Below the pieces are notes generated by a model. That model saw only the letters and a program-made list of their open reading frames with translations. It did no database searches and was not told where the DNA came from. This document shows, piece by piece, positions 1-51,665 of a DNA stretch of 61,350 nt. The DNA is from Candidatus Moraniibacteriota bacterium (GTDB lineage Bacteria; Patescibacteriota; Minisyncoccia; Moranbacterales; UBA1568), in the NCBI GenBank assembly GCA_037133435.1, contig JBAXOD010000005.1:1-61350 (forward strand), read 5' to 3'. The translations under genes were made by a program, and so were the position numbers. How positions within the stretch are numbered: position 1 is the stretch's first letter; each line of letters opens with the position of its first letter.

Positions 1-178
1 GATGGTTAGAGATGAACCAGTGTACCCCGTTGCGTTAGAAGTTGGAAACCGCCTACAAAAACCCGCCATGCCCAGAGGGCCAGGACGGGTGGTTTTAGTA
101 CTTCGAATATCGCACATGAAATGCGCCCTGTCAATATTCTTAAAAACGCCGATGAGAACCCATTTCTGAAGCCGTTGC

Positions 179-208
179 GTCTGCCTTCGAAGGCCTTCGG
201 CGCGACAA
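179..208. repeat. 30-bp palindromic insert (CGCCGAAG...CGAAGG family) inside the wzt P-loop codons
   Basis: It encodes LVAPKAFEGR between GIIG and RNG. GTC occurs at both 179-181 and 209-211 (possible target duplication). It resembles the element at 50275-50302. Confidence 0.75.
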
Positions 209-241
209 GTCCGATGATGCCGAAAAATTCCCCTTTCTTCA

Positions 242-349
242 CCCGTCCGCAGCGATACGCCAAGCGTTTCGGGCGGGCCCGTCCGCAGCGATACGCCAAG
301 CATTTCGGGCAGGCCCGTCCGCAGCGATACGCCAAGCGTTTCGGGCGGG
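242..349. repeat. Three tandem 36-bp hairpin units inserted in-frame in wzt
   Basis: Units of CCCGTCCGCAGCGATACGCCAAGC(G/A)TTTCGGGC(G/A)GG lie at 242-277, 278-313 and 314-349. Each has 8-bp terminal inverted repeats. Confidence 0.95.
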
Positions 350-881
350 CCTCGAAGGAGACGTCGTCGAGCGCCTTGAATTCCTCGAACGTCCGTTTAC
401 CGTTCAAGGCCGACGTGAACGCACCCCGAATCGAAGACACCTTCTCGTGAAATATCCGGAAGGTCTTGGAGACGTTTTTAACGCTGATGGCGATATCTTT
501 GTCCATTGCTGTATTCTAGCCTATTTATAAGCAACTTTCTAGTATTGACAAAAAAGTCGGAATCGGTGAAAATTGGATATGACTTTCCGACTATCCTATT
601 TCTTTTCGGCACGAAGAAAATGGGGCCACTCCGGAAGGCTCGGGAGTGATTATCCTCATCTTCCGACGAACGCGGACACGATACCGCGTGATGTGCCGGC
701 CGTTTGGACCCCGATCGGGATAGGATCGCCAAGCGGTTCTACACGACAAAAAGGACCCTGCCTAGGCTTTGCCTTTGTGGGGGCCTTTTCTTTTATCCTT
801 CTGCAACGTACAATGAAATTGTAAAAGTTAGTCGAACACCGACCGTATGGCGGGTCGTCCGGATTTCCGGACTAGGCTATT

Positions 882-908
882 CCCCCTGAAAAGGGGGTTT
901 TGTTTTTT
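882..908 (+). terminator. Intrinsic terminator-like hairpin
   Basis: CCCCCT-GAAA-AGGGGG followed by a T-rich tract. Confidence 0.6.
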
Positions 909-940
909 CTGAAAAATTCCCTTTCTCACCAGCATTCTCC

Positions 941-1600
941 ATCTCCCTGCCTGTCTCCACGAGGCCCTGCGTGGCGGTCCATGCCGTTCCGTCTCCGCGA
1001 GGATTTTTGTCTTCGGAAATCCGTGGCGGTCCATGTCTTATCATCTCATTCTGGATTGCCACGCCTCGCCGACTCGTCTCGCACCCGCCTGCAACGATAG
1101 CATTTCGGGCAGGCCCGCCTGACAACACTTCGTTTAGCAGCGCGGGCTGGAAGACCGCGGAAGGGTCCGGGAACTGGATTGCCGCGGTCGCGGACTCCCT
1201 CGCAAAGACCGAGGGAACCCTCTCCCTGCCTGTCTCCGCGAGGATTTTTGTCTTCGAAAATCCGTGGCGGTCCATGTCTTATCATCTCATTCTGGATTGC
1301 CACGCCTCGCCGACTCGTCTCGCAAAGACCGAGGGAACTCTCTCTCTCACCGACCGTCTCCGTGAGGCCCTGCGTGGCGGTCCATCTCTTGACTGCTCCC
1401 CGTTCGTCTCCGCGAGGATGTACTCATCCGAGGCGGTCCAACCCCTGTCTGAATTTCCCTTGCCTGTCTCCGCGAGGATGTATTCATCCGTGGCGGTCCA
1501 GTGATTCCGTTCCCTGTTTTCTGTTCCATGTTATCTGTCATCTGTTCTTTCTGGATTGCCACGGTTGCATCCGCCAGCTGACGGATTCACAAAGTCAAAC
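941..1600. repeat. Mosaic palindromic repeat array downstream of the toxin-antitoxin pair
   Basis: Six copies of GTCTCCRYGAG-[variable core]-GWGGCGGTCCA at 953, 991, 1232, 1356, 1406 and 1466. Four copies of CTGGATTGCC...CAAAG at 1051, 1174, 1292 and 1551. Confidence 0.95.
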
Positions 1601-1623
1601 AAAGTAAAGCACGTAATCAGATT

Positions 1624-2280
1624 CTATGACGTTGTTTTGGCGGACACAAAATCGGTTACCAACCGTACAAAAAAACTTTCAATCTCCGTTTGCGCGATTT
1701 CTTCGTCGATCCAGTCCACTTCAAACACTCCGAGATCGGCAAAGTATACCAGCTGTTGCAAAAAAAGTTTTTCGTCGAAGTTTCCCCCGAATCGTCGCTT
1801 CGTTTCCGACAGCATGTCTTCGAACTTCAGACCGTTCTTGAGCAGAAAGAAAACATCCACGTAGTCCCGCCACACCCCCCTGCGACCGATCGCATATGCC
1901 TTGTTGGATCCCAGGTCCTGCAGATCGAAAAGTTTCATCGTTTCATCGCCGACACGATCATGCAGGGCGGGAAAGGGGAAATAAATGAAAGAAAGTTTGA
2001 TTTCATCGTCCAAAATCACGCTGAGCTCGTCTGCGGTATCGACGACCGGACGGACCTGATAGGCGGAAAAAAGACTATTGATCTTGTTCAACAGTTTTTT
2101 GGAAACGGGATCAGCCAGAAAAAAATCGAAATCATAAGACTTTCGATGCCGTAGCTGAAGCGCGATCGCCGTTCCTCCGCCCAAAACGAAATTCGGGAAG
2201 TTTTTTTCCAAAAGGGCGAAGACGACTTGCCTTTTTTCATCCAAGATTTCTTTGTGAAACTGTGAGATATCGTTGTTCAT
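1624..2280 (-). CDS. Nucleotidyltransferase, AbiEii/AbiGii-type toxin family
   Basis: FVLGGGTAIALQLRHRKSYDFDFF (GGTA plus DxD motif) and C-terminal KAYAIGRRGVWRDYVD. Confidence 0.9.
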   Translation of the reverse strand: MNNDISQFHKEILDEKRQVVFALLEKNFPNFVLGGGTAIALQLRHRKSYDFDFFLADPVSKKLLNKINSLFSAYQVRPVVDTADELSVILDDEIKLSFIYFPFPALHDRVGDETMKLFDLQDLGSNKAYAIGRRGVWRDYVDVFFLLKNGLKFEDMLSETKRRFGGNFDEKLFLQQLVYFADLGVFEVDWIDEEIAQTEIESFFVRLVTDFVSAKTTS

Positions 2281-2548
2281 CGATTTTATTCGTATCGCCC
2301 AGATTAAGAATGATCTTGACCACGAAATTCAAAGCCTCCGGAGAATATATTTTTTGCGGATGCCCGAGGAAAACACGTTCCAAAACCTCCGAAGCATAGT
2401 GACTCTTCAGCCACGCGATATCTTCCATCGAACCATACCGCAATACCTGGTTGATAATATATTCTTTGTCACGTTCAAAATCAAGAGTTCGTGCGTCTCT
2501 TGACCAAAGAATCCCCTGCATTTTCCTCTGTTTTTCCGCGTGTTCCAT
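2237..2548 (-). CDS. DUF6922-like small protein, putative antitoxin
   Basis: ILWSRDARTLDFERDKEYIINQVLRYGSMEDIAWL. It overlaps the toxin start. The ATG at 2548 lies 6 nt after an extended -10 (TGGTATACT). The longer listed ORF (to 3022) is read-through of repeats. Confidence 0.8.
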   Translation of the reverse strand: MEHAEKQRKMQGILWSRDARTLDFERDKEYIINQVLRYGSMEDIAWLKSHYASEVLERVFLGHPQKIYSPEALNFVVKIILNLGDTNKIDEQRYLTVSQRNLG

Positions 2549-2599
2549 ACTGCAAGTATACCATATCGGGTATAAAAAACAAGAGGAAAATAGAACTTG

Positions 2600-3200
2600 G
2601 GACGAGGTCGGTCCATCCCTTGACTGCTCCCCTGACTGTCTCCCTGCCTGTCTCCGCGAGGATGTACTCATCCGTGGCGGTCCATCCCCTGTCTGAATTT
2701 CTCTCGTTCGTCTCCGCGAGGCCCTGCGTGGCGGTCCATCTCCTGTCTGAATTTCCCTTGCCTGTCTCCGCGAGGATGTACCCATCCGTGGCGGTCCATG
2801 TCTTATCATCTCATTCTGGATTGCCACCCCGGCATACGCGGGGCAGGCTGGTCGTGGACTCCCTCGCACCCGCCTGCAACGCTGTGTAGCAATGCGGGCA
2901 GGCCCGCCTGACAACGATAGCATTTCGGGCAGGCCCGCCTGACAACACTCTTTGTGTAGCAATGCGGGCAGGCCCGCCTGCAACGATAGCATTTCGGGCA
3001 GGCCCGCCTGCAACGATAGCATTTCGGGCAGGCCCGCCTAACAACACTCTTTGTGTAGCAGCGCGGGCTGGAAGACCGAGGAAGGGTCCAGGAACTGGAT
3101 TGCCGCGGTCGCGGACTCCCTCGCAAAGACCGAAGAGGCCCTTCTCCTTTCCGCTTACCTCCCTGACTGTCTCCGCGAGGCCCTGCGTGGCGGTCCATCC
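2600..3200. repeat. Mosaic palindromic repeat array upstream of the toxin-antitoxin pair
   Basis: Four more GTCTCCGCGAG...GTGGCGGTCCA copies (2650, 2710, 2764, 3169), two CTGGATTGCC host repeats (2816, 3095) and a six-unit hairpin array at 2869-3071. Confidence 0.95.
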
Positions 3201-3258
3201 CCTGTCTGTTTCCTGCCCTTCGCAAAGGGCGGGGAAGAAAAGACCGAGAGATGCGGTT

Positions 3259-3696
3259 TTATGCCGATTTTGCTTTCCGCTTCGAATCCAAAAAAAGTTT
3301 GGCAAGGCTAACCGGAACAAACAGCACACTCATCGCAAGCGAAACCGATTCCTTGGTCGGACCCAGATTAAGAATATATCCGGCATGCTCCGGAGTAAGC
3401 ATGATAAGCACGACCGTGATTCCGAACCACACCAAAGCGAACCAAGCCCATCTACGAAACACATTATCACGAACGAAAAAGAGGAATGGAAAAACAACAA
3501 GAAGAGAAAAAGACAGAAACAATAATGGTTTGCCAATAGTTAGAGCACTTTTATCTAGACACCCACTATATGAATCAGTCCAATATATGTGATCACACAT
3601 ACCAAATATTTCTTGGTTCCTGAGAATGTATGAGACTCCCATGCCAATGCCGATAATTGCAAAAATCAAAATCCTCCACCAATATGTCTTTTTCAT
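3259..3696 (-). CDS. Small multi-pass membrane protein, paralog 3
   Basis: About four hydrophobic segments. Shares PFLFFVRD..F..W..F...WF and PTKESVS..MSVLF.PVSL with the two neighbours. Confidence 0.85.
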   Translation of the reverse strand: MKKTYWWRILIFAIIGIGMGVSYILRNQEIFGMCDHIYWTDSYSGCLDKSALTIGKPLLFLSFSLLVVFPFLFFVRDNVFRRWAWFALVWFGITVVLIMLTPEHAGYILNLGPTKESVSLAMSVLFVPVSLAKLFLDSKRKAKSA

Positions 3697-12501: not shown

Positions 12502-13278
12502 CTACATCTCCTCGGCGACACGCGGGGCGAGCTTATTGTAGGAGAAGATACCGGACAGGAAGAAGAGCAGGACGGTGACGATGAAGACGGCGCTCTTCCA
12601 CGGATCCGCGAAGTGCGCGTTGATGAGTGCCTCCTTGGAAAAGTGGATGATGAAGGCGATCGGATTGATGAGGAGGATCTGCTGGGCCCAGAGCGGCATC
12701 ATCTGGAGCGAATAGAAGACCGGGGTCGCGTAAAAGAGGATCTGCAACAGGACTTCCCAGATCATCGAGAGGTCGCGGAACCGGACGAACAAGGGAGCGG
12801 TCAGGAGCGCGAACGCGAGCACGATGACATAGATGAGGACGGAGAACAGGAGAAAGAGCGCGATGGCCGGAACGGTGGGCATAAACCGGCTCCAGACGAA
12901 GAAAGCGACCACGACCACGAGGTTCATTATGTAGATCATGGCGGCGTTCAGGGTGGAGGCCGTGACGATGGTCCAGCGCGGGATGTAGATCTTCGTCACG
13001 AGCTGGGATTTGCTCACCAAAGACTGCATGCCGGCACTCGTGCCCTCGGAAAAGAAGTTGAACATGAGGATACCCACGAGGAGCTGGAGCGAGTAATGCT
13101 CCATCCCCTGCCCACGGTTCACGAAGATGGACGTGAAGACGAAATTCAGGATGGCAAAGGTCAGAAGCGGCTTGAGCAACGCCCAGATATAGCCCAAAAA
13201 GGACCCCTGATAGCGGAGTTTGAAATCGGTCTTGGCGAGCATCCAGATAAGCTCGCGGTAGTTCTCGTGTTTCTTCAT
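12502..13278 (-). CDS. wzm: ABC-2 type transporter permease (Wzm/TagG family)
   Basis: LAKTDFKLRYQGSFLGYIWALLKPL, RDLSMIWEVLLQILFYATPVFY and six transmembrane segments. Confidence 0.92.
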   Translation of the reverse strand: MKKHENYRELIWMLAKTDFKLRYQGSFLGYIWALLKPLLTFAILNFVFTSIFVNRGQGMEHYSLQLLVGILMFNFFSEGTSAGMQSLVSKSQLVTKIYIPRWTIVTASTLNAAMIYIMNLVVVVAFFVWSRFMPTVPAIALFLLFSVLIYVIVLAFALLTAPLFVRFRDLSMIWEVLLQILFYATPVFYSLQMMPLWAQQILLINPIAFIIHFSKEALINAHFADPWKSAVFIVTVLLFFLSGIFSYNKLAPRVAEEM

Positions 13279-28195: not shown

Positions 28196-28645
28196 TTATC
28201 GGCTCACTTTTTCCGTCACGTCGTCTTGGATCCGAAACATCTCGGGCGAATGATCGAGACCCAAGAGGTGCAGGATGCCGTGCGAACACACGAATGCGAG
28301 TTCCTTCCTGAACGGAACGCTGTCCCCTTCCGCCGCTCGGGCGACGAAGTCCGGCGCGATCACGAGATCGCCGAGAAACACCGCGCCCGTCCCGTCGGGA
28401 CGTATTTCCTCCCCATCATACTCCGCGAACGAAAGCACGTCGGTCGGCGCGTCCTTTCCGCGATACGTCCGGTTGAGTTCGCGGATTTCCGAATCGGAAA
28501 CAAGCGCGATGCCGACTCCGACCCGCGAAGAAACAGAAAGAGACGGGATCCCGCTTCGGGAAACCGTCTCTTTCACGACCGCGAGGAGGAGGTCGTCCTC
28601 CGCCTCGCAGTCCGCATTCCTCACGATGTCGATGTCGAATTCCAT
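28196..28645 (-). CDS. ybeY: rRNA maturation RNase YbeY
   Basis: LNRTYRGKDAPTDVLSF and HGILHLLGLDH. Confidence 0.96.
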   Translation of the reverse strand: MEFDIDIVRNADCEAEDDLLLAVVKETVSRSGIPSLSVSSRVGVGIALVSDSEIRELNRTYRGKDAPTDVLSFAEYDGEEIRPDGTGAVFLGDLVIAPDFVARAAEGDSVPFRKELAFVCSHGILHLLGLDHSPEMFRIQDDVTEKVSR

Positions 28646-34169: not shown

Positions 34170-35053
34170 CCCAATCCCCCTCAGTCCCCCTTTGGGCCAA
34201 AGGGGGAAGTAATATATATGTATGCCCGGTGATATACTTTGGAAAACGTCATAAGACCGCTCTCTCCCATTGTCCCAAGGGGAGAGATATTCATGTCATT
34301 CGCGAACGATGAGGCAGGAGGGGTTGGAATAGAATACTATACGATAAGAATAAACAACGCTTCCTATCCCAATATCCCTGATTCCTTACTCAGACGGAAC
34401 CAGTCCCTCTTCGGGTCAAAGAGGGAAACTCGGGATACTATACCATCGAAAACAGAACGTTCTCTCCCCTTGTCCCAAGGGGAGGACAGGAGGGGTTGGA
34501 GGAAAGGAAAGTTACGAAAGAAAATATCGAAGACCTATGCCAGCCGACAGGAAAACGATCCTGAAGTCTCGCGCGCGAACGCTTCGAAAAACCATGACCG
34601 AAGCGGAAATTCGGATATGGAACCGGCTTCGGAGAAGACAGATCAACGGGCTCCGTTTTCTCCGCCAACATCCGCTCGGGAAATATATCGTCGACTTCTA
34701 CTGCCCATCCGAAAAGCTCGCCATCGAAATCGATGGCGGCCAACATTACGAATCCGGAGAAAGCGTCGACAAGGATCGTGAGCGCGACGACTTTCTGTTC
34801 CGCGAATACGGTACCCGCACCCTCCGGTTCACGAACACCGACGTCATGCAAAACATGGCTTCCGTCATTGATCGGATTCTCGAGGAGAGTCTGTAAATTA
34901 GCCATCTTACACGCCTCTACTGAACCCAATCCCCCTCAGTCCCCCTTTGGGCCAAAGGGGGAGGTTATACAAGTATGCCATGCGATATTCTTTGGAAGAC
35001 GCAATAACCACGTTCTTTCCTCTTGTCTCAAGGGGAGAGACAGAGAAGGGTTA
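34170..35053. repeat. BIME/REP-like array of three A...B inverted palindrome pairs around the DUF559 gene
   Basis: A 38-bp A element is identical at 34170-34207 and 34925-34962, with a degenerate copy at about 34400-34426. B elements lie at 34261-34327, 34461-34500 and 35013-35053. Confidence 0.9.
34537..34896 (+). CDS. DUF559 (Vsr-like) endonuclease domain protein
   Basis: RARTLRKTMTEAEIRIW, FLRQHPLGKYIVDFYC, AIEIDGGQH and LRFTN. Confidence 0.95.
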   Translation: MPADRKTILKSRARTLRKTMTEAEIRIWNRLRRRQINGLRFLRQHPLGKYIVDFYCPSEKLAIEIDGGQHYESGESVDKDRERDDFLFREYGTRTLRFTNTDVMQNMASVIDRILEESL

Positions 35054-50063: not shown

Positions 50064-51665
50064 TTATTCCCCCAAACCAAGCTTCTCGATGCGGGAACGA
50101 ATACTGCCCGGCTGGCGACCGAGCATATGTGAGATGGATTTGATATCCGCTCCGCCGTTATGCAATGTCTGGAGCCATTTATCCTCATCTTCCTTCCACG
50201 GCATGTACGCATGCGGATATTTCTTTCTGATTTCGTCGTATCGTCCCGGTTCACCCGGTGATTTTTTTTTATTACCACGCCGAAGCTTTAGCGAAGGCGG
50301 GCTTAATTGTTCACCCATTTCACCCTTTTGTTCCACCTTACTCCGTGCCCCGCAGACAATCAAAAACGCCTCCTCATCCTTGTTCCTCTCCTCCTCGCTT
50401 CGGGAACCGTACGAAAATTCCGCAGCGGCGCTTTCCTCGCGGAAAAGCCGGTCGCGCTCGCGCACGTCGGGATGCGTCATGAACGCCCGATCGGAAATCC
50501 CGGTAAGCGAGATGCCGGAGAGCGTCCGCACCCGCGAGAGCGCCACGTACCCTTGCCCGAACTCGAACACGCGCGACAAATCCATGACCGCCGCGTCGAG
50601 GCTCACGCCCTGGCTCTTGTGGATCGTCATCGCCCAGGCGAGTTTGAGCGGAATCTGCCGGATCCGTGCCACGATCTCCTCGCCTTCTTCCACGGCCCAA
50701 TCGGCCGGCTCGACCGTAATCGAATCACCATCTCGTGTGCGCACGACCGGAAACTTCGTCGACGGAGAAAACCCGGTGATCGTACCGATCGTCCCGTTCA
50801 CATACCCCTCGTCGGGATTGTTCTTCGTAAACATCACCGTCGCTCCCTCCTTGAGCTCGAGCTGTTCCGGCGAAAGGCATCCGCGGATAAGCGACGTGAG
50901 CGGCTTCTCGGACCCGCGCGTCGCCATACGGAAGACATGCGCCTTGCCGGGAAGCCGCGCGAGCGCCGCGGTATTGATCATGTCCACGTCGGCATTGTGC
51001 GTGAAAAGCCGTGGCAGATCCTCGTCGGGAACATCATCGGGACCGAGGATCCGTGCCTGTACGAGCTCGCGGTGCATCTCTGTCACCTCGTCGCGACGTA
51101 TCGCCGAGAGGATCTCGAGGAACGCCGCATCCTCCTGCCGGTGTTGTTCCGACAGATAACAGACGACCGGGTCGAGCGCCGCCCATGCGGAGGACTCGAA
51201 CGCGAAATGTGCGTCCTCGCCGCGTGAGACCGGCGGCAATTGGAAGAAATCCCCCACCAAGACGACCTGCAACCCACCGAAAGGAAGCGTCGAGCCGCCC
51301 TTGGCCGCCCGGCACATGCGTTCCACGAGCGAGAGCGTCTTCGCATCGAGCATCGAGACCTCGTCGATCACGAGCACCTTGGCGCTTCTGATCCGCTTGA
51401 CCGCGACCCGGTTCTTCAGGAGATGTTTGAATCCGTCATCATCGATATCGCGCTCCACGCCGATCCCGCTCCACGAATGGATGGTCATACCCTTCAAGTG
51501 CGTGGCGGCGATACCGGTCGAGGCCGTCATCGCGTACGATATGCCGCGGGAACGCAGATACTCCGCATATCGGTTCACGACATGCGTCTTGCCCGCGCCC
51601 GCCTCCCCGGTAAGGAAGACGTTCGCGCCGGTCCGAAGTATCGATAGGGCCTGGTCCTGGGTCAT
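50064..51665 (-). CDS. PIF1/RecD-like ATP-dependent DNA helicase with a C-terminal HTH-like domain
   Basis: GEAGAGKT, TIHSWSG, VIDEVSM, GDFFQLPPV, AWAMTIHKSQG and YVALSR. Confidence 0.95.
   Translation of the reverse strand: MTQDQALSILRTGANVFLTGEAGAGKTHVVNRYAEYLRSRGISYAMTASTGIAATHLKGMTIHSWSGIGVERDIDDDGFKHLLKNRVAVKRIRSAKVLVIDEVSMLDAKTLSLVERMCRAAKGGSTLPFGGLQVVLVGDFFQLPPVSRGEDAHFAFESSAWAALDPVVCYLSEQHRQEDAAFLEILSAIRRDEVTEMHRELVQARILGPDDVPDEDLPRLFTHNADVDMINTAALARLPGKAHVFRMATRGSEKPLTSLIRGCLSPEQLELKEGATVMFTKNNPDEGYVNGTIGTITGFSPSTKFPVVRTRDGDSITVEPADWAVEEGEEIVARIRQIPLKLAWAMTIHKSQGVSLDAAVMDLSRVFEFGQGYVALSRVRTLSGISLTGISDRAFMTHPDVRERDRLFREESAAAEFSYGSRSEEERNKDEEAFLIVCGARSKVEQKGEMGEQLSPPSLKLRRGNKKKSPGEPGRYDEIRKKYPHAYMPWKEDEDKWLQTLHNGGADIKSISHMLGRQPGSIRSRIEKLGLGE
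50275..50302. repeat. Palindromic element inside the helicase linker
   Basis: CCACGCCGAAGCTTTAGCGAAGGCGGGC, translated as SPPSLKLRRG. Confidence 0.75.

What the first reader, a model, noticed from the sequence alone, without database searches (positions are those of the whole stretch)
179..349. Palindromic elements have invaded a protein-coding gene in-frame, one at the P-loop
Seen: removing 242-349 (3x36 bp) and 179-208 (30 bp) restores the canonical Wzt text DDVSFE-VKKGEFFGIIG-RNG. Both inserts are multiples of 3. The 36-bp unit is the 30-bp hairpin of the 1084 and 2869 arrays plus 6 bp (CGCCAA). The 30-bp insert resembles the element in the helicase at 50275. Established: Rickettsia palindromic elements insert in-frame into genes. 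Inference: two independent micro-element families hit the same gene, and one of them expanded in place.
Basis: partly seen in the sequence, partly recalled or inferred. Interest (0 to 1): 0.65.

Follow-up and report, generated by a model that had tools for sequence, protein, structure and literature searches.

The report
Palindromic repeats inside a dead wzt remnant
Short GC-rich palindromic repeats really were inserted, in frame, into this ORF, but the ORF is a dead 5' leftover of the wzt transporter gene, so this case says little about protein evolution; the 36-base repeat does belong to a widespread family that sits in frame inside working housekeeping genes elsewhere.

Summary
Window 242-349 is three tandem 36-nt units and 179-208 is a 30-nt insert. 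Removing both restores the canonical Wzt text, and intact Moranbacteria orthologues lack them.

ORF 6-506(-) is not a working wzt. It is a ~120-codon 5' remnant that has lost the Walker A lysine, has no ABC_tran hit, and ends at a promoter plus conserved hairpin. In related genomes that element precedes an NYN or PemK-like gene and then the intact wzt.

The 36-nt unit belongs to a widespread palindrome family (consensus CCTGCCCGAAATGCTNCGCATAACGNTGCAGGCGGG). The 30-nt intergenic unit is a rare shortened derivative of it, not its precursor. In metagenomes, 32 of 73 family copies with lengths divisible by 3 lie inside long ORFs, against 1 of 17 other lengths. Of 30 such ORFs, 24 are recognisable genes such as topA, recG, pheT and RNase R.

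Copy number at this site is 3 here, 1 in a strain ~97% identical over the 3' half of the remnant, and 0 in other remnants. The frame is kept because the element's standard length is 36 nt, not because this ORF works.

The parts
6..506 (-). wzt 5' remnant ORF (166 aa) that runs into the cassette sequence and stops at 6-8
   Evidence: ORF list and translation. No Pfam family for the ORF as it stands. Similar short remnants P0002-P0005 exist in relatives.
351..506 (-). Codons 1-52, canonical Wzt N-terminus (MDKDIAISVKNVSKTF...DDVSFE)
   Evidence: dN/dS against intact orthologues is 0.04-0.16, the same as intact versus intact. Remnants show patchy highest identity to the resident intact wzt.
242..349 (-). 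Three head-to-tail 36-nt palindromic units (242-277, 278-313, 314-349), read as ARPKRLAYRCGR / ACPKCLAYRCGR / ARPKRLAYRCGR
   Evidence: TRF. Repeat family D10. ssDNA hairpin -10.3 kcal/mol, z -2.1. Same family as 65 36-nt metagenome copies. Logan unitig 250-351 is exact.
210..242 (-). VKKGEFFGIIG codons between the two inserts
   Evidence: 0 nonsynonymous and 3-4 synonymous differences against intact orthologues.
179..208 (-). 30-nt insert (LVAPKAFEGR) after the first Gly of Walker A. It holds two overlapping perfect 12-nt palindromes, GCCTTCGAAGGC and CGAAGGCCTTCG.
   Evidence: Absent from intact wzt; shared by remnants of L082, L085 and P0003. No other copy in the window. Not a significant ssDNA hairpin, z +0.5.
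126..178 (-). Degenerate Walker A and helix (RNGFRNGFSSAFLRILTG): Gly to Arg, Lys to Asn, plus a 9-nt insert
   Evidence: DNA alignment with intact wzt. pN 0.29-0.32.
106..134 (-). Promoter-like TTGACA-17-GATATT (TG-extended) at the wzt/cassette junction
   Evidence: Consensus scan. The boxes are conserved and the spacer is not in L082, L085, L087 and L088.
58..98 (-). Conserved hairpin plus T-run (CTAAAACCACCCGTCCTGGCCCTCTGGGCATGGCGGGTTTT). In relatives it lies in front of an NYN or PemK-like gene.
   Evidence: BLAST against loci. z -3.3. One stem pair covaries CG/GC/AU.
1..53 (.). Contig-end sequence that leaves the L082-type arrangement and overlaps high-depth contigs (56x in X1, 30x in X2): an assembly break
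1084..1113 (+). Intergenic 30-nt derivative unit of the same palindrome family
2904..3040 (+). Intergenic head-to-tail array of 30-nt and 39-nt derivative units
743..807 (-). Relic of an NYN gene 3' end (…LQKDKRKGPHKGKA*) plus downstream hairpin, upstream of the remnant
   Evidence: 97% identical to L085 7704-7768, the end of NYN gene 2 in front of that genome's intact wzt.

Best explanation
ORF 6-506(-) is a non-functional 5' remnant of wzt. In related Moranbacteria the same kind of remnant lies upstream of a small cassette (promoter, conserved hairpin, NYN or PemK-like gene), and the intact wzt follows. The layout is that of an insertion that duplicated the first ~75 wzt codons. Here the contig ends just behind the hairpin.

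The remnant has collected short GC-rich palindromes:
1. One copy of a widespread 36-nt palindrome entered between codons E52 and V53. This most likely happened before the window, L082 and L087 remnants diverged. In this strain it was amplified head-to-tail to three units, by slippage, unequal exchange or exchange with the neighbouring 30-nt arrays (inferred).
2. A 30-nt double palindrome entered after the first Gly of Walker A. Four remnants share it.

The frame stays open because the element's standard length is 36 nt and it carries no stop in that frame. At family level, copies divisible by 3 are the ones that survive inside genes. This ORF does not need to encode a working protein.

Patchy gene conversion from the resident intact wzt (inferred from identity patterns) keeps the stretches between the inserts looking canonical. 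It probably also removes inserts again, which would explain the 0/1/3 and presence/absence differences between near-identical remnants.
For: Remnant status:
- No ABC_tran hit. The Walker A lysine is lost. wzt homology ends at LRILTG, inside a TTGACA box.
- Relatives show remnant, then hairpin, then NYN or PemK-like gene, then intact wzt.
- Several loci hold 2-5 wzt 5' copies, two of them frameshifted or stopped.
- wzm lies 12 kb upstream.
- An NYN 3' relic lies upstream of the remnant.

Insertions:
- Intact orthologues, and metagenome contigs that skip 108-109 nt, lack them.
- L082/L084 has 1 unit; P0003 and L085 have none. P0003 is otherwise near-identical but carries two other inserts.

Family:
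- 120 metagenome stretches were found, and 65 canonical copies are 36 nt.
- 32 of 73 copies divisible by 3 are intragenic, against 1 of 17 others (Fisher p=0.004).
- 24 of 30 spanning ORFs have Pfam domains, many on both sides of the element.
- 25 of 33 start at codon phase 0.
- The stem covaries, and host contigs range from 31 to 68% GC.

Conversion: remnants are most similar to their own genome's intact wzt in patches. dN/dS of codons 1-52 is 0.04-0.16.

Array and transcription: Logan unitig 250-351 is exact, and an RNA contig covers 306-492.
Against: - The contig ends at the cassette, so neither the downstream gene nor an intact wzt copy of this genome was seen.
- All 11 hairpin-type inserts counted in five remnants are multiples of 3. 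This could also mean selection for an open frame.
- Low dN/dS in the 5' 52 codons and in VKKGEFFGIIG is also what a still-translated, constrained peptide would show.
- Amplification in place versus repeated insertion next to an existing copy cannot be told apart. Unit 2 carries two changes toward the intergenic 30-nt family.
- The 30-nt insert was not shown to belong to any repeat family.
- Support for the array comes from assembler contigs, not raw reads, and 54-249 has no exact independent contig.
Confidence: 0.8

Rival explanations
1. One reading: a working wzt gene was invaded in frame by two palindromic elements, one inside the P-loop, and the protein tolerates them (RPE-style).
For: Both inserts are multiples of 3 and free of stops, and the flanking text is canonical. 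An RNA contig covers 306-492. Intact wzt genes of other Moranbacteria do carry in-frame hairpin inserts: L002 +57 nt, L009 +42, L006 +60, and L015.
Against: The Walker A Lys and Gly are replaced and 3 further codons are inserted. There is no ABC_tran hit. Nothing downstream of the Walker A helix is wzt; the ORF runs into a promoter-hairpin element and stops. Relatives carry the same remnant in front of an intact wzt. The unit is read in a frame seen in 1 of 33 intragenic copies.
Confidence: 0.05
2. The remnant ORF is kept open by selection. Translation from the old wzt start might be needed in cis for the downstream cassette gene (coupling or protection from polarity), so only in-frame, stop-free inserts survive.
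For: All 11 hairpin-type inserts in five remnants are multiples of 3. The remnant stop lies 4 nt before the NYN start in L082 and overlaps it (ATGA) in L087. dN/dS is low in the 5' part. A promoter-like site lies upstream (541-513) and there is an RNA contig.
Against: The cassette has its own conserved promoter inside the ORF's 3' end. The ORF tail is read in different frames in different genomes (LKPPVLTLWAWR versus TKTTRPDSLGMAGF), so conservation there is at the nucleotide level. Remnants with a frameshift or stop exist (L006, L087a). The protein search only returned ORFs of 91 aa or more, which biases the sample toward open frames. The 36-nt length is standard in intergenic copies too.
Confidence: 0.12
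3. The three-unit array is an assembly artefact: a collapsed or expanded repeat, or a chimera of two remnants.
For: The contig has 8.7x coverage and the array lies 240 nt from a contig end. No contig at 97% identity or more covers 54-249 in X1 or X2. The X2 allele has one unit.
Against: A Logan unitig, assembled separately with a different assembler, matches 250-351 exactly and fixes A-tail/B/A. Another joins the last unit to 350-1046, and an RNA contig spans the B/A junction. X1 may be the sample the window was assembled from, so this is not independent reads. P0003, from another metagenome, joins the same N-terminal type to the same C-terminal type. The one-unit allele belongs to a different strain, with 6 differences in 58-241 and a different 5' part.
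Confidence: 0.04
4. The 30-nt insert is not a mobile element but a local product: a palindromic or tandem 10-nt duplication (GCCTTCGAAG/GCCTTCGGCG) made by template switching during repair.
For: There is no other copy in 61 kb. It is not a significant hairpin. Internally it is two overlapping 12-nt palindromes, or equally a 10-nt near-repeat. It is flanked by GAC on both sides (sequence).
Against: Similar arms (CCGAAGG...CCTTCGG) occur as a 19-nt palindrome, once or twice, in wzt of L006 at another site and in two metagenome loci. A related motif sits in the Pif1 helicase linker.
Confidence: 0.3

Closest known systems
Intragenic REPs (Di Nocera, De Gregorio and Rocco 2013, PMC3733652), including RPE-4 and RPE-6 of Rickettsia conorii
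   Same: These are 20-40-nt GC-rich imperfect palindromes. They are mostly intergenic, but some copies are read through inside genes as singles, dimers or clusters that add 12-80 residues, and many sit in replication and repair genes. The 36-nt family found here sits in topA, recG, SMC, RNase R, pheT and others.
   Different: The canonical unit has no GTAG or CGTC tetranucleotide at either end. No RAYT gene was seen. The hosts are mostly unidentified metagenome contigs of 31-68% GC, and here a Moranbacteria (CPR) genome. The copy in this finding lies in a dead gene remnant.
Rickettsia palindromic elements, RPE-1 type (Ogata et al. 2000, 2002, as reviewed in PMC10969869)
   Same: Selfish palindromic repeats that insert in frame into unrelated housekeeping genes and are tolerated as extra surface peptides.
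   Different: RPE-1 elements are about 100-150 bp and specific to Rickettsia. This element is 36 nt with no sequence relation, and it shows a strong preference for one reading (PARNAxHNxAGG).
REP/BIME clusters and REPINs mobilised by RAYT transposases
   Same: Short hairpin repeats in head-to-tail or mosaic clusters between genes, with unit number varying between strains (arrays at 1084 and 2904-3040, and the 3-unit array).
   Different: No Y1 (RAYT) transposase was found in the window or in the fetched loci. Units here are in direct, not inverted, orientation.
Insertion with long target duplication
   Same: In relatives a small gene cassette is bracketed by a duplicate of the first ~75 wzt codons and the intact wzt.
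   Different: In this window only the left half is visible (remnant, promoter, hairpin). The duplicate has decayed and been patch-converted.

Membership tests
Functional Wzt / ABC transporter ATPase | Walker A motif GxxxxGK[ST] | tested here: not met
   The ORF reads G[LVAPKAFEGR]RNGFRNGFSSAF. No GK[ST] is present in any frame of 126-209.
Functional Wzt / ABC transporter ATPase | Complete ABC_tran domain (Q-loop, signature motif, Walker B, H-loop) | tested here: not met
   No Pfam hit for the ORF. After removal of the inserts only profile positions 1-22 match, E=0.025. Orthologues continue for about 180-380 more residues.
Rickettsia palindromic elements (RPE) | Repeat family with hairpin potential present in many copies | tested here: met
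Hairpin z about -2.
Rickettsia palindromic elements (RPE) | Copies inserted in frame in functional protein-coding genes | tested here: met
   Met for the family: 32 intragenic copies, and 24 of 30 host ORFs have Pfam domains, several with the element inside the domain. Not met for the copy in this finding, whose host is a dead remnant.
Rickettsia palindromic elements (RPE) | Element of ~100-150 bp belonging to the RPE sequence families of Rickettsia | tested here: not met
   The unit is 36 nt. The host is Moranbacteria-like. RPE size is taken from PMC10969869.
GTAG/CGTC-tagged REP superfamilies | GTAG or CGTC tetranucleotide at one end of the palindrome | tested here: inconclusive
   The canonical unit begins CCTGCC and ends GGCGGG, with no tag at either end. 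The window's variant has CGTC at bases 3-6 of the + strand unit (CCCGTCCG). The family definition was read in PMC3733652.
REP/REPIN-RAYT system | Cognate Y1 (RAYT) transposase gene flanked by the repeats | not testable with these tools
   None was noticed among the window's large ORFs.
Tandem-repeat (VNTR-type) locus | Head-to-tail units whose number differs between close strains | tested here: met
   3 units here, 1 in L082/L084 (97% identical over window 55-278), 0 in P0003 and L085 remnants.
NYN cassette with long target duplication | Cassette gene flanked by a duplicated segment of the target gene | tested here: inconclusive
   Met in relatives L082, L085, L087 and L088. In the window the contig ends after the hairpin, and no NYN gene is present in 61 kb.

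The most novel reading that the evidence does not exclude
The 36-nt palindrome may be a coding-adapted mobile element with no known transposase, effectively a 12-codon mini-RPE. It would spread horizontally among very different genomes (31-68% GC) and enter or survive in genes almost only at codon phase 0, as a PARNAxHNxAGG loop. Dead gene remnants such as this wzt stump and nearby intergenic arrays would then be the places where it amplifies in tandem and diversifies (36 to 30 or 39 nt).
Probability: 0.2. Interest if true: 0.7.

Novelty: new member of a known kind. Interest (0 to 1): 0.42.

Why it matters
Taken alone, the case is ordinary: repeats accumulating in a dead gene fragment. It still matters in three ways.

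1. It corrects an attractive but wrong reading, namely a P-loop that tolerates a foreign peptide.
2. It ties the local repeats to a widespread 36-nt palindrome. In public metagenomes this palindrome is read through inside topoisomerase I, RecG, SMC, RNase R, PheT, RpoA-adjacent regions and other core genes, with a marked frame preference. I found no paper describing palindromic elements inserted in frame in Patescibacteria, though the text searches were limited.
3. The remnant shows how fast such elements are gained, multiplied and lost. Three presence/absence differences separate near-identical remnants. They can also sit next to patch-wise gene conversion from the intact paralogue. Both points are useful when reading MAG annotations, where such stumps are called 'hypothetical proteins'.

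Tried and rejected
I therefore could not count elements genome-wide or find this genome's intact wzt.
- Rfam on 1-3400 at E up to 1: only two chance miRNA hits.
- Hypothesis that every length variant of the palindrome family is a multiple of 3: rejected. Copies of 37, 35, 38, 40 and 41 nt exist, but 16 of those 17 are not intragenic.
The regex is weak, so this is not a refutation.
- Whether 50279-50298 is an insertion in the Pif1 helicase: homologues at about 50% identity are unalignable in that linker, so the result is inconclusive.
- The strongest local hairpins inside other window ORFs (for example 28535-28614): the spanning ORF looked non-genic, and I did not pursue it.
- What lies beyond window position 1: window 1-60 matches none of the fetched loci, and there is no NYN-like sequence in the window.
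- Contig chimera at the array: considered and rejected because P0003 joins the same end types and the Logan unitigs agree.

Full report
**1. What is at the coordinates**

The window is essentially one metagenome contig (ENA ERZ4200879, NODE_254, 61,349 bp, coverage 8.7). On the minus strand, 6-506 is a 166-codon ORF.
- Tandem Repeats Finder reports 242-351 as 3.1 copies of a 36-nt unit. Units 1 and 3 are identical and unit 2 differs at two bases.
- In frame, the array adds ARPKRLAYRCGR / ACPKCLAYRCGR / ARPKRLAYRCGR between DDVSFE and VKKGEFFGIIG.
- The 30 nt at about 179-208 add LVAPKAFEGR between GIIG and RNG.
- A scan of one genome per species found 419 relatives of the cleaned 66-aa text. 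The best are Moranbacteria MAGs (up to 82% identity), and they read DDVSFEVKKGEFFGIIGRNGSGKST without interruption.
- Metagenome contigs of relatives skip exactly 108-109 nt at the array.

The observation therefore stands, and both stretches are insertions relative to orthologues.

**2. The host ORF is not a working wzt**

- The ORF as it stands hits no Pfam family. With the inserts removed, only the first 22 positions of ABC_tran match, at E=0.025.
- Walker A reads RNGFRNGFSSAF where orthologues have RNGSGKST. The DNA alignment shows Gly to Arg, Lys to Asn and a further 9-nt insert.
- wzt homology stops after LRILTG (the LKILAG of orthologues). What follows is not wzt.
- A protein search found the same kind of ORF, 137-149 aa, in four other assemblies (P0002-P0005), all without Pfam domains. 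Their contigs show the context:
  - remnant, then an NYN-domain gene 4 nt later or overlapping by ATGA, then an intact 252-414-aa wzt (L082/L083/L084, L085/L086, L087);
  - remnant, then a PemK-like gene, then an intact wzt (L088).
- tblastn of a Wzt N-terminus against all fetched loci shows 2-5 wzt 5' copies in many Moranbacteria loci. Two of them carry a frameshift or stop (L006 1107-1629, L087 3184-3533).
- In the window, wzm (12502-13278, ABC2_membrane) lies 12 kb upstream. AbiEii and DUF6922 genes sit next to the remnant.
- Window 807-743 encodes the last 14 residues of an NYN protein. It is 97% identical to the end of the NYN gene that precedes the intact wzt in L085. This is a relic of an earlier cassette.

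**3. What ends the remnant**

All remnants end in the same element: TTGACA, a 17-nt non-conserved spacer, a TATAAT-like box, and then CTAAAACCACCCGTCCTGACCCTCTGGGCATGGCGGGTTTT.
- In the window the promoter-like site is 134-106 and the hairpin is 98-58 (z = -3.3).
- One stem pair covaries CG/GC/AU across five copies.
- The ORF tail is read in different frames in different genomes (LKPPVLTLWAWR versus TKTTRPDSLGMAGF). Conservation is therefore at the nucleotide level.
- After GGCGGGTTTT (window 54) the window departs from the L082 arrangement. Window 1-53 overlaps contigs of much higher depth in two runs, so this is an assembly break.
- I could not see which gene follows, or this genome's intact wzt.

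**4. What the 36-nt unit is**

I scanned JGI metagenome contigs with GCCCGAAAYGCT-N(1-25)-TGCRGRCGGG.
- Among hits with the family's CCY prefix, 65 are exactly 36 nt. The consensus is CCTGCCCGAAATGCTNCGCATAACGNTGCAGGCGGG, and the two N positions covary G-C, A-T, T-A.
- Host contigs range from 31 to 68% GC.
- The 30-nt form of the window's intergenic arrays is rare: 2 of about 90. L127 carries a copy identical to the window's 30-nt unit.
- The 36-nt unit is thus the standard form and the 30-nt unit a 6-nt shorter derivative.
- In the window's 36-nt unit the extra bases lengthen the apical stem.

**5. Do family members in genes have lengths divisible by 3?**

- I counted a copy as intragenic if an ORF of at least 150 codons spans it with at least 15 codons on each side.
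- 32 of 73 copies with lengths divisible by 3 are intragenic, against 1 of 17 copies of 32, 35, 37, 38, 40 or 41 nt (Fisher p = 0.004).
- Pfam found domains in 24 of 30 spanning ORFs. They include SMC/RecN, RecG, topoisomerase I, PheT (twice), RNase R (twice), class II aminoacyl-tRNA synthetases, M17 peptidase, YebC, RmuC, TatD, FtsJ, TrmD, TsaE, RpoA and S9. In several the domain lies on both sides of the element.
- 25 of 33 intragenic copies begin at codon phase 0 (p = 7.5e-7 against 1/3). Of these, 21 read PARNAxHNxAGG.
- The window's units are read in sense phase 1 (RPKRLAYRCGR). Only one other intragenic copy shares this frame, and that copy has no Pfam hit.
- Most 36-nt copies (37 of 65) are not in long ORFs. 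Length 36 is therefore a property of the element, not evidence that this particular ORF is under selection.
- The disfavoured frame fits insertion into, or persistence in, a sequence whose product does not matter.

**6. History of the inserts (partly inferred)**

- The 36-nt unit sits at the same site and in the same frame in the remnants of L082 (1 unit, identical to the window's units 1 and 3) and L087 (both of its remnants). It is absent from L085 and P0003.
- WIN, L082, L085 and P0003 share the 30-nt insert and the Walker A lesions.
- P0003 is nearly identical to the window's ORF at both ends. It lacks the array and carries two other inserts (LAEALCAGGP; SSFLLPFLRGGQGGVS). Three presence/absence differences thus separate near-identical remnants.
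- In patches, remnants are most similar to the intact wzt of their own genome. In codons 1-31, L082 is 82% identical against 58-68% for other genomes, and L087 is 88% against 54-69%.
- Codons 1-52 of the window's remnant show dN/dS of 0.04-0.16 against intact orthologues, like intact versus intact. The Walker A part has pN of about 0.3.
- I read this as patch-wise gene conversion from the intact paralogue. It keeps the text between the inserts canonical and can erase inserts.
- The triple array is most simply a local amplification of the single ancestral unit. Unit 2's two changes match the neighbouring 30-nt family, so exchange with those arrays is possible. This step is inferred.

**7. Support for the array**

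Only assembler contigs (Logan) were available, not raw reads.
- In run X1 a 102-nt unitig matches 250-351 exactly, and a 725-nt contig matches 322-1046. Unit 2 is distinguishable, so this fixes A-tail/B/A/right flank. X1 may be the sample the window was assembled from, so this is a second assembly rather than necessarily independent data.
- A metatranscriptome contig from the same sample matches 306-492.
- No contig at 97% identity or more covers 54-249. The left junction therefore rests on the original assembly and on the agreement with P0003 and L082.

**8. The 30-nt insert and the helicase**

- The insert has no other copy in the window and is not a significant single-strand hairpin (z +0.5).
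- It consists of two overlapping perfect 12-nt palindromes.
- Similar arms (CCGAAGG...CCTTCGG) form a 19-nt perfect palindrome that occurs twice, in frame, in the intact wzt of L006 and once in its remnant.
- The motif shared with 50279-50298 is real, but the pattern was defined from the two sequences themselves.
- That stretch lies in a linker of the Pif1 helicase that cannot be aligned among homologues, so I cannot say whether it is an insertion.

**9. Comparison with what is known**

- Read-through REPs of 20-40 nt inside genes, as singles, dimers and clusters, are described for several bacteria, including RPE-4 and RPE-6 of Rickettsia (PMC3733652). RPE-1-type elements of about 100-150 bp are the classic case (PMC10969869).
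- Full-text searches found no paper describing palindromic elements inserted in frame in Patescibacteria.
- The family works like intragenic REPs and RPEs. It is not an RPE by size or sequence. It lacks an end tag of the GTAG or CGTC kind in its canonical form, and no RAYT was seen.
- Earlier notes of this scan, used as leads only, had already reported a 36-nt palindrome in ileS, glyQS and atpA of this genome, the 'dead wzt', the arrays at 953-3197, and NYN cassettes with long target duplications in other CPR genomes. My results agree with these where I tested them.

**10. Verdict**

- The specific case is repeats piling up in a gene stump.
- The broader behaviour of the family is real, but it is a new member of a known kind.

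Noticed in passing
window 58-134 (-); L082 6330-6434; L087 5340-5424 and 1860-1942; L088 620-706: A conserved unit made of a sigma-70-like promoter (boxes conserved, spacer not) and a ~40-nt hairpin with a T-run. One stem pair covaries. It always lies right behind a wzt 5' fragment and in front of an NYN or PemK-like gene. It matches no Rfam family. In L087 a second copy follows a wzt stump of only 9 codons.
   Followed up: partly
window 743-807 (-): This stretch encodes the last 14 residues of an NYN protein plus a downstream hairpin. It is 97% identical to the end of the NYN gene in front of the intact wzt of L085. It is a relic of an earlier cassette upstream of the present remnant, which suggests serial stacking of cassettes at wzt.
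   Followed up: partly
L003, L006, L008, L009, L015, L023, L085, L087 (loci): Many Moranbacteria genomes carry 1-4 extra wzt 5' fragments (9 to about 160 codons) upstream of the intact wzt. Some are frameshifted or stopped. The wzt 5' end looks like a recurrent docking site for small toxin-type genes.
   Followed up: partly
L002 3001-3300, L009, L006 3240-3310, L015 3001-3270: Apparently intact wzt genes of other Moranbacteria carry their own in-frame hairpin inserts. Most lie in the loop after GIYQxD (+57, +42, +60 nt; L006 has a perfect 19-nt palindrome twice). L015 has them in the N-terminal strands.
   Followed up: partly
metagenome loci L089-L208: The 36-nt palindrome is read as PARNAxHNxAGG in 21 of 33 intragenic copies. 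It occurs in contigs from 31 to 68% GC with covarying stem positions. 37-nt variants (one extra loop base) were found only outside long ORFs.
   Followed up: yes
window 1-53: The first 53 bases overlap contigs of 56x (X1) and 30x (X2) depth, against about 5-7x for the rest. They match nothing else fetched. This is either a repeat or a sequence shared with a more abundant relative, and it is the reason the contig ends here.
   Followed up: partly
L082 6455-7040: The NYN ORF of L082 stops at TGA, but the frame continues with a plausible C-terminal sequence (KTDETILLTKEDIKTFETPLLLV). This may be a recent nonsense mutation in the cassette gene.
   Followed up: no
window 34175-34207 and 34930-34962; 34261-34287 and 34464-34484: Two further short hairpin repeats (TCCCCCTTTGGGCCAAAGGGGGA and CTCCCCTTGTCCCAAGGGGAG) occur in pairs around 34.2-35.0 kb.
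   Followed up: no
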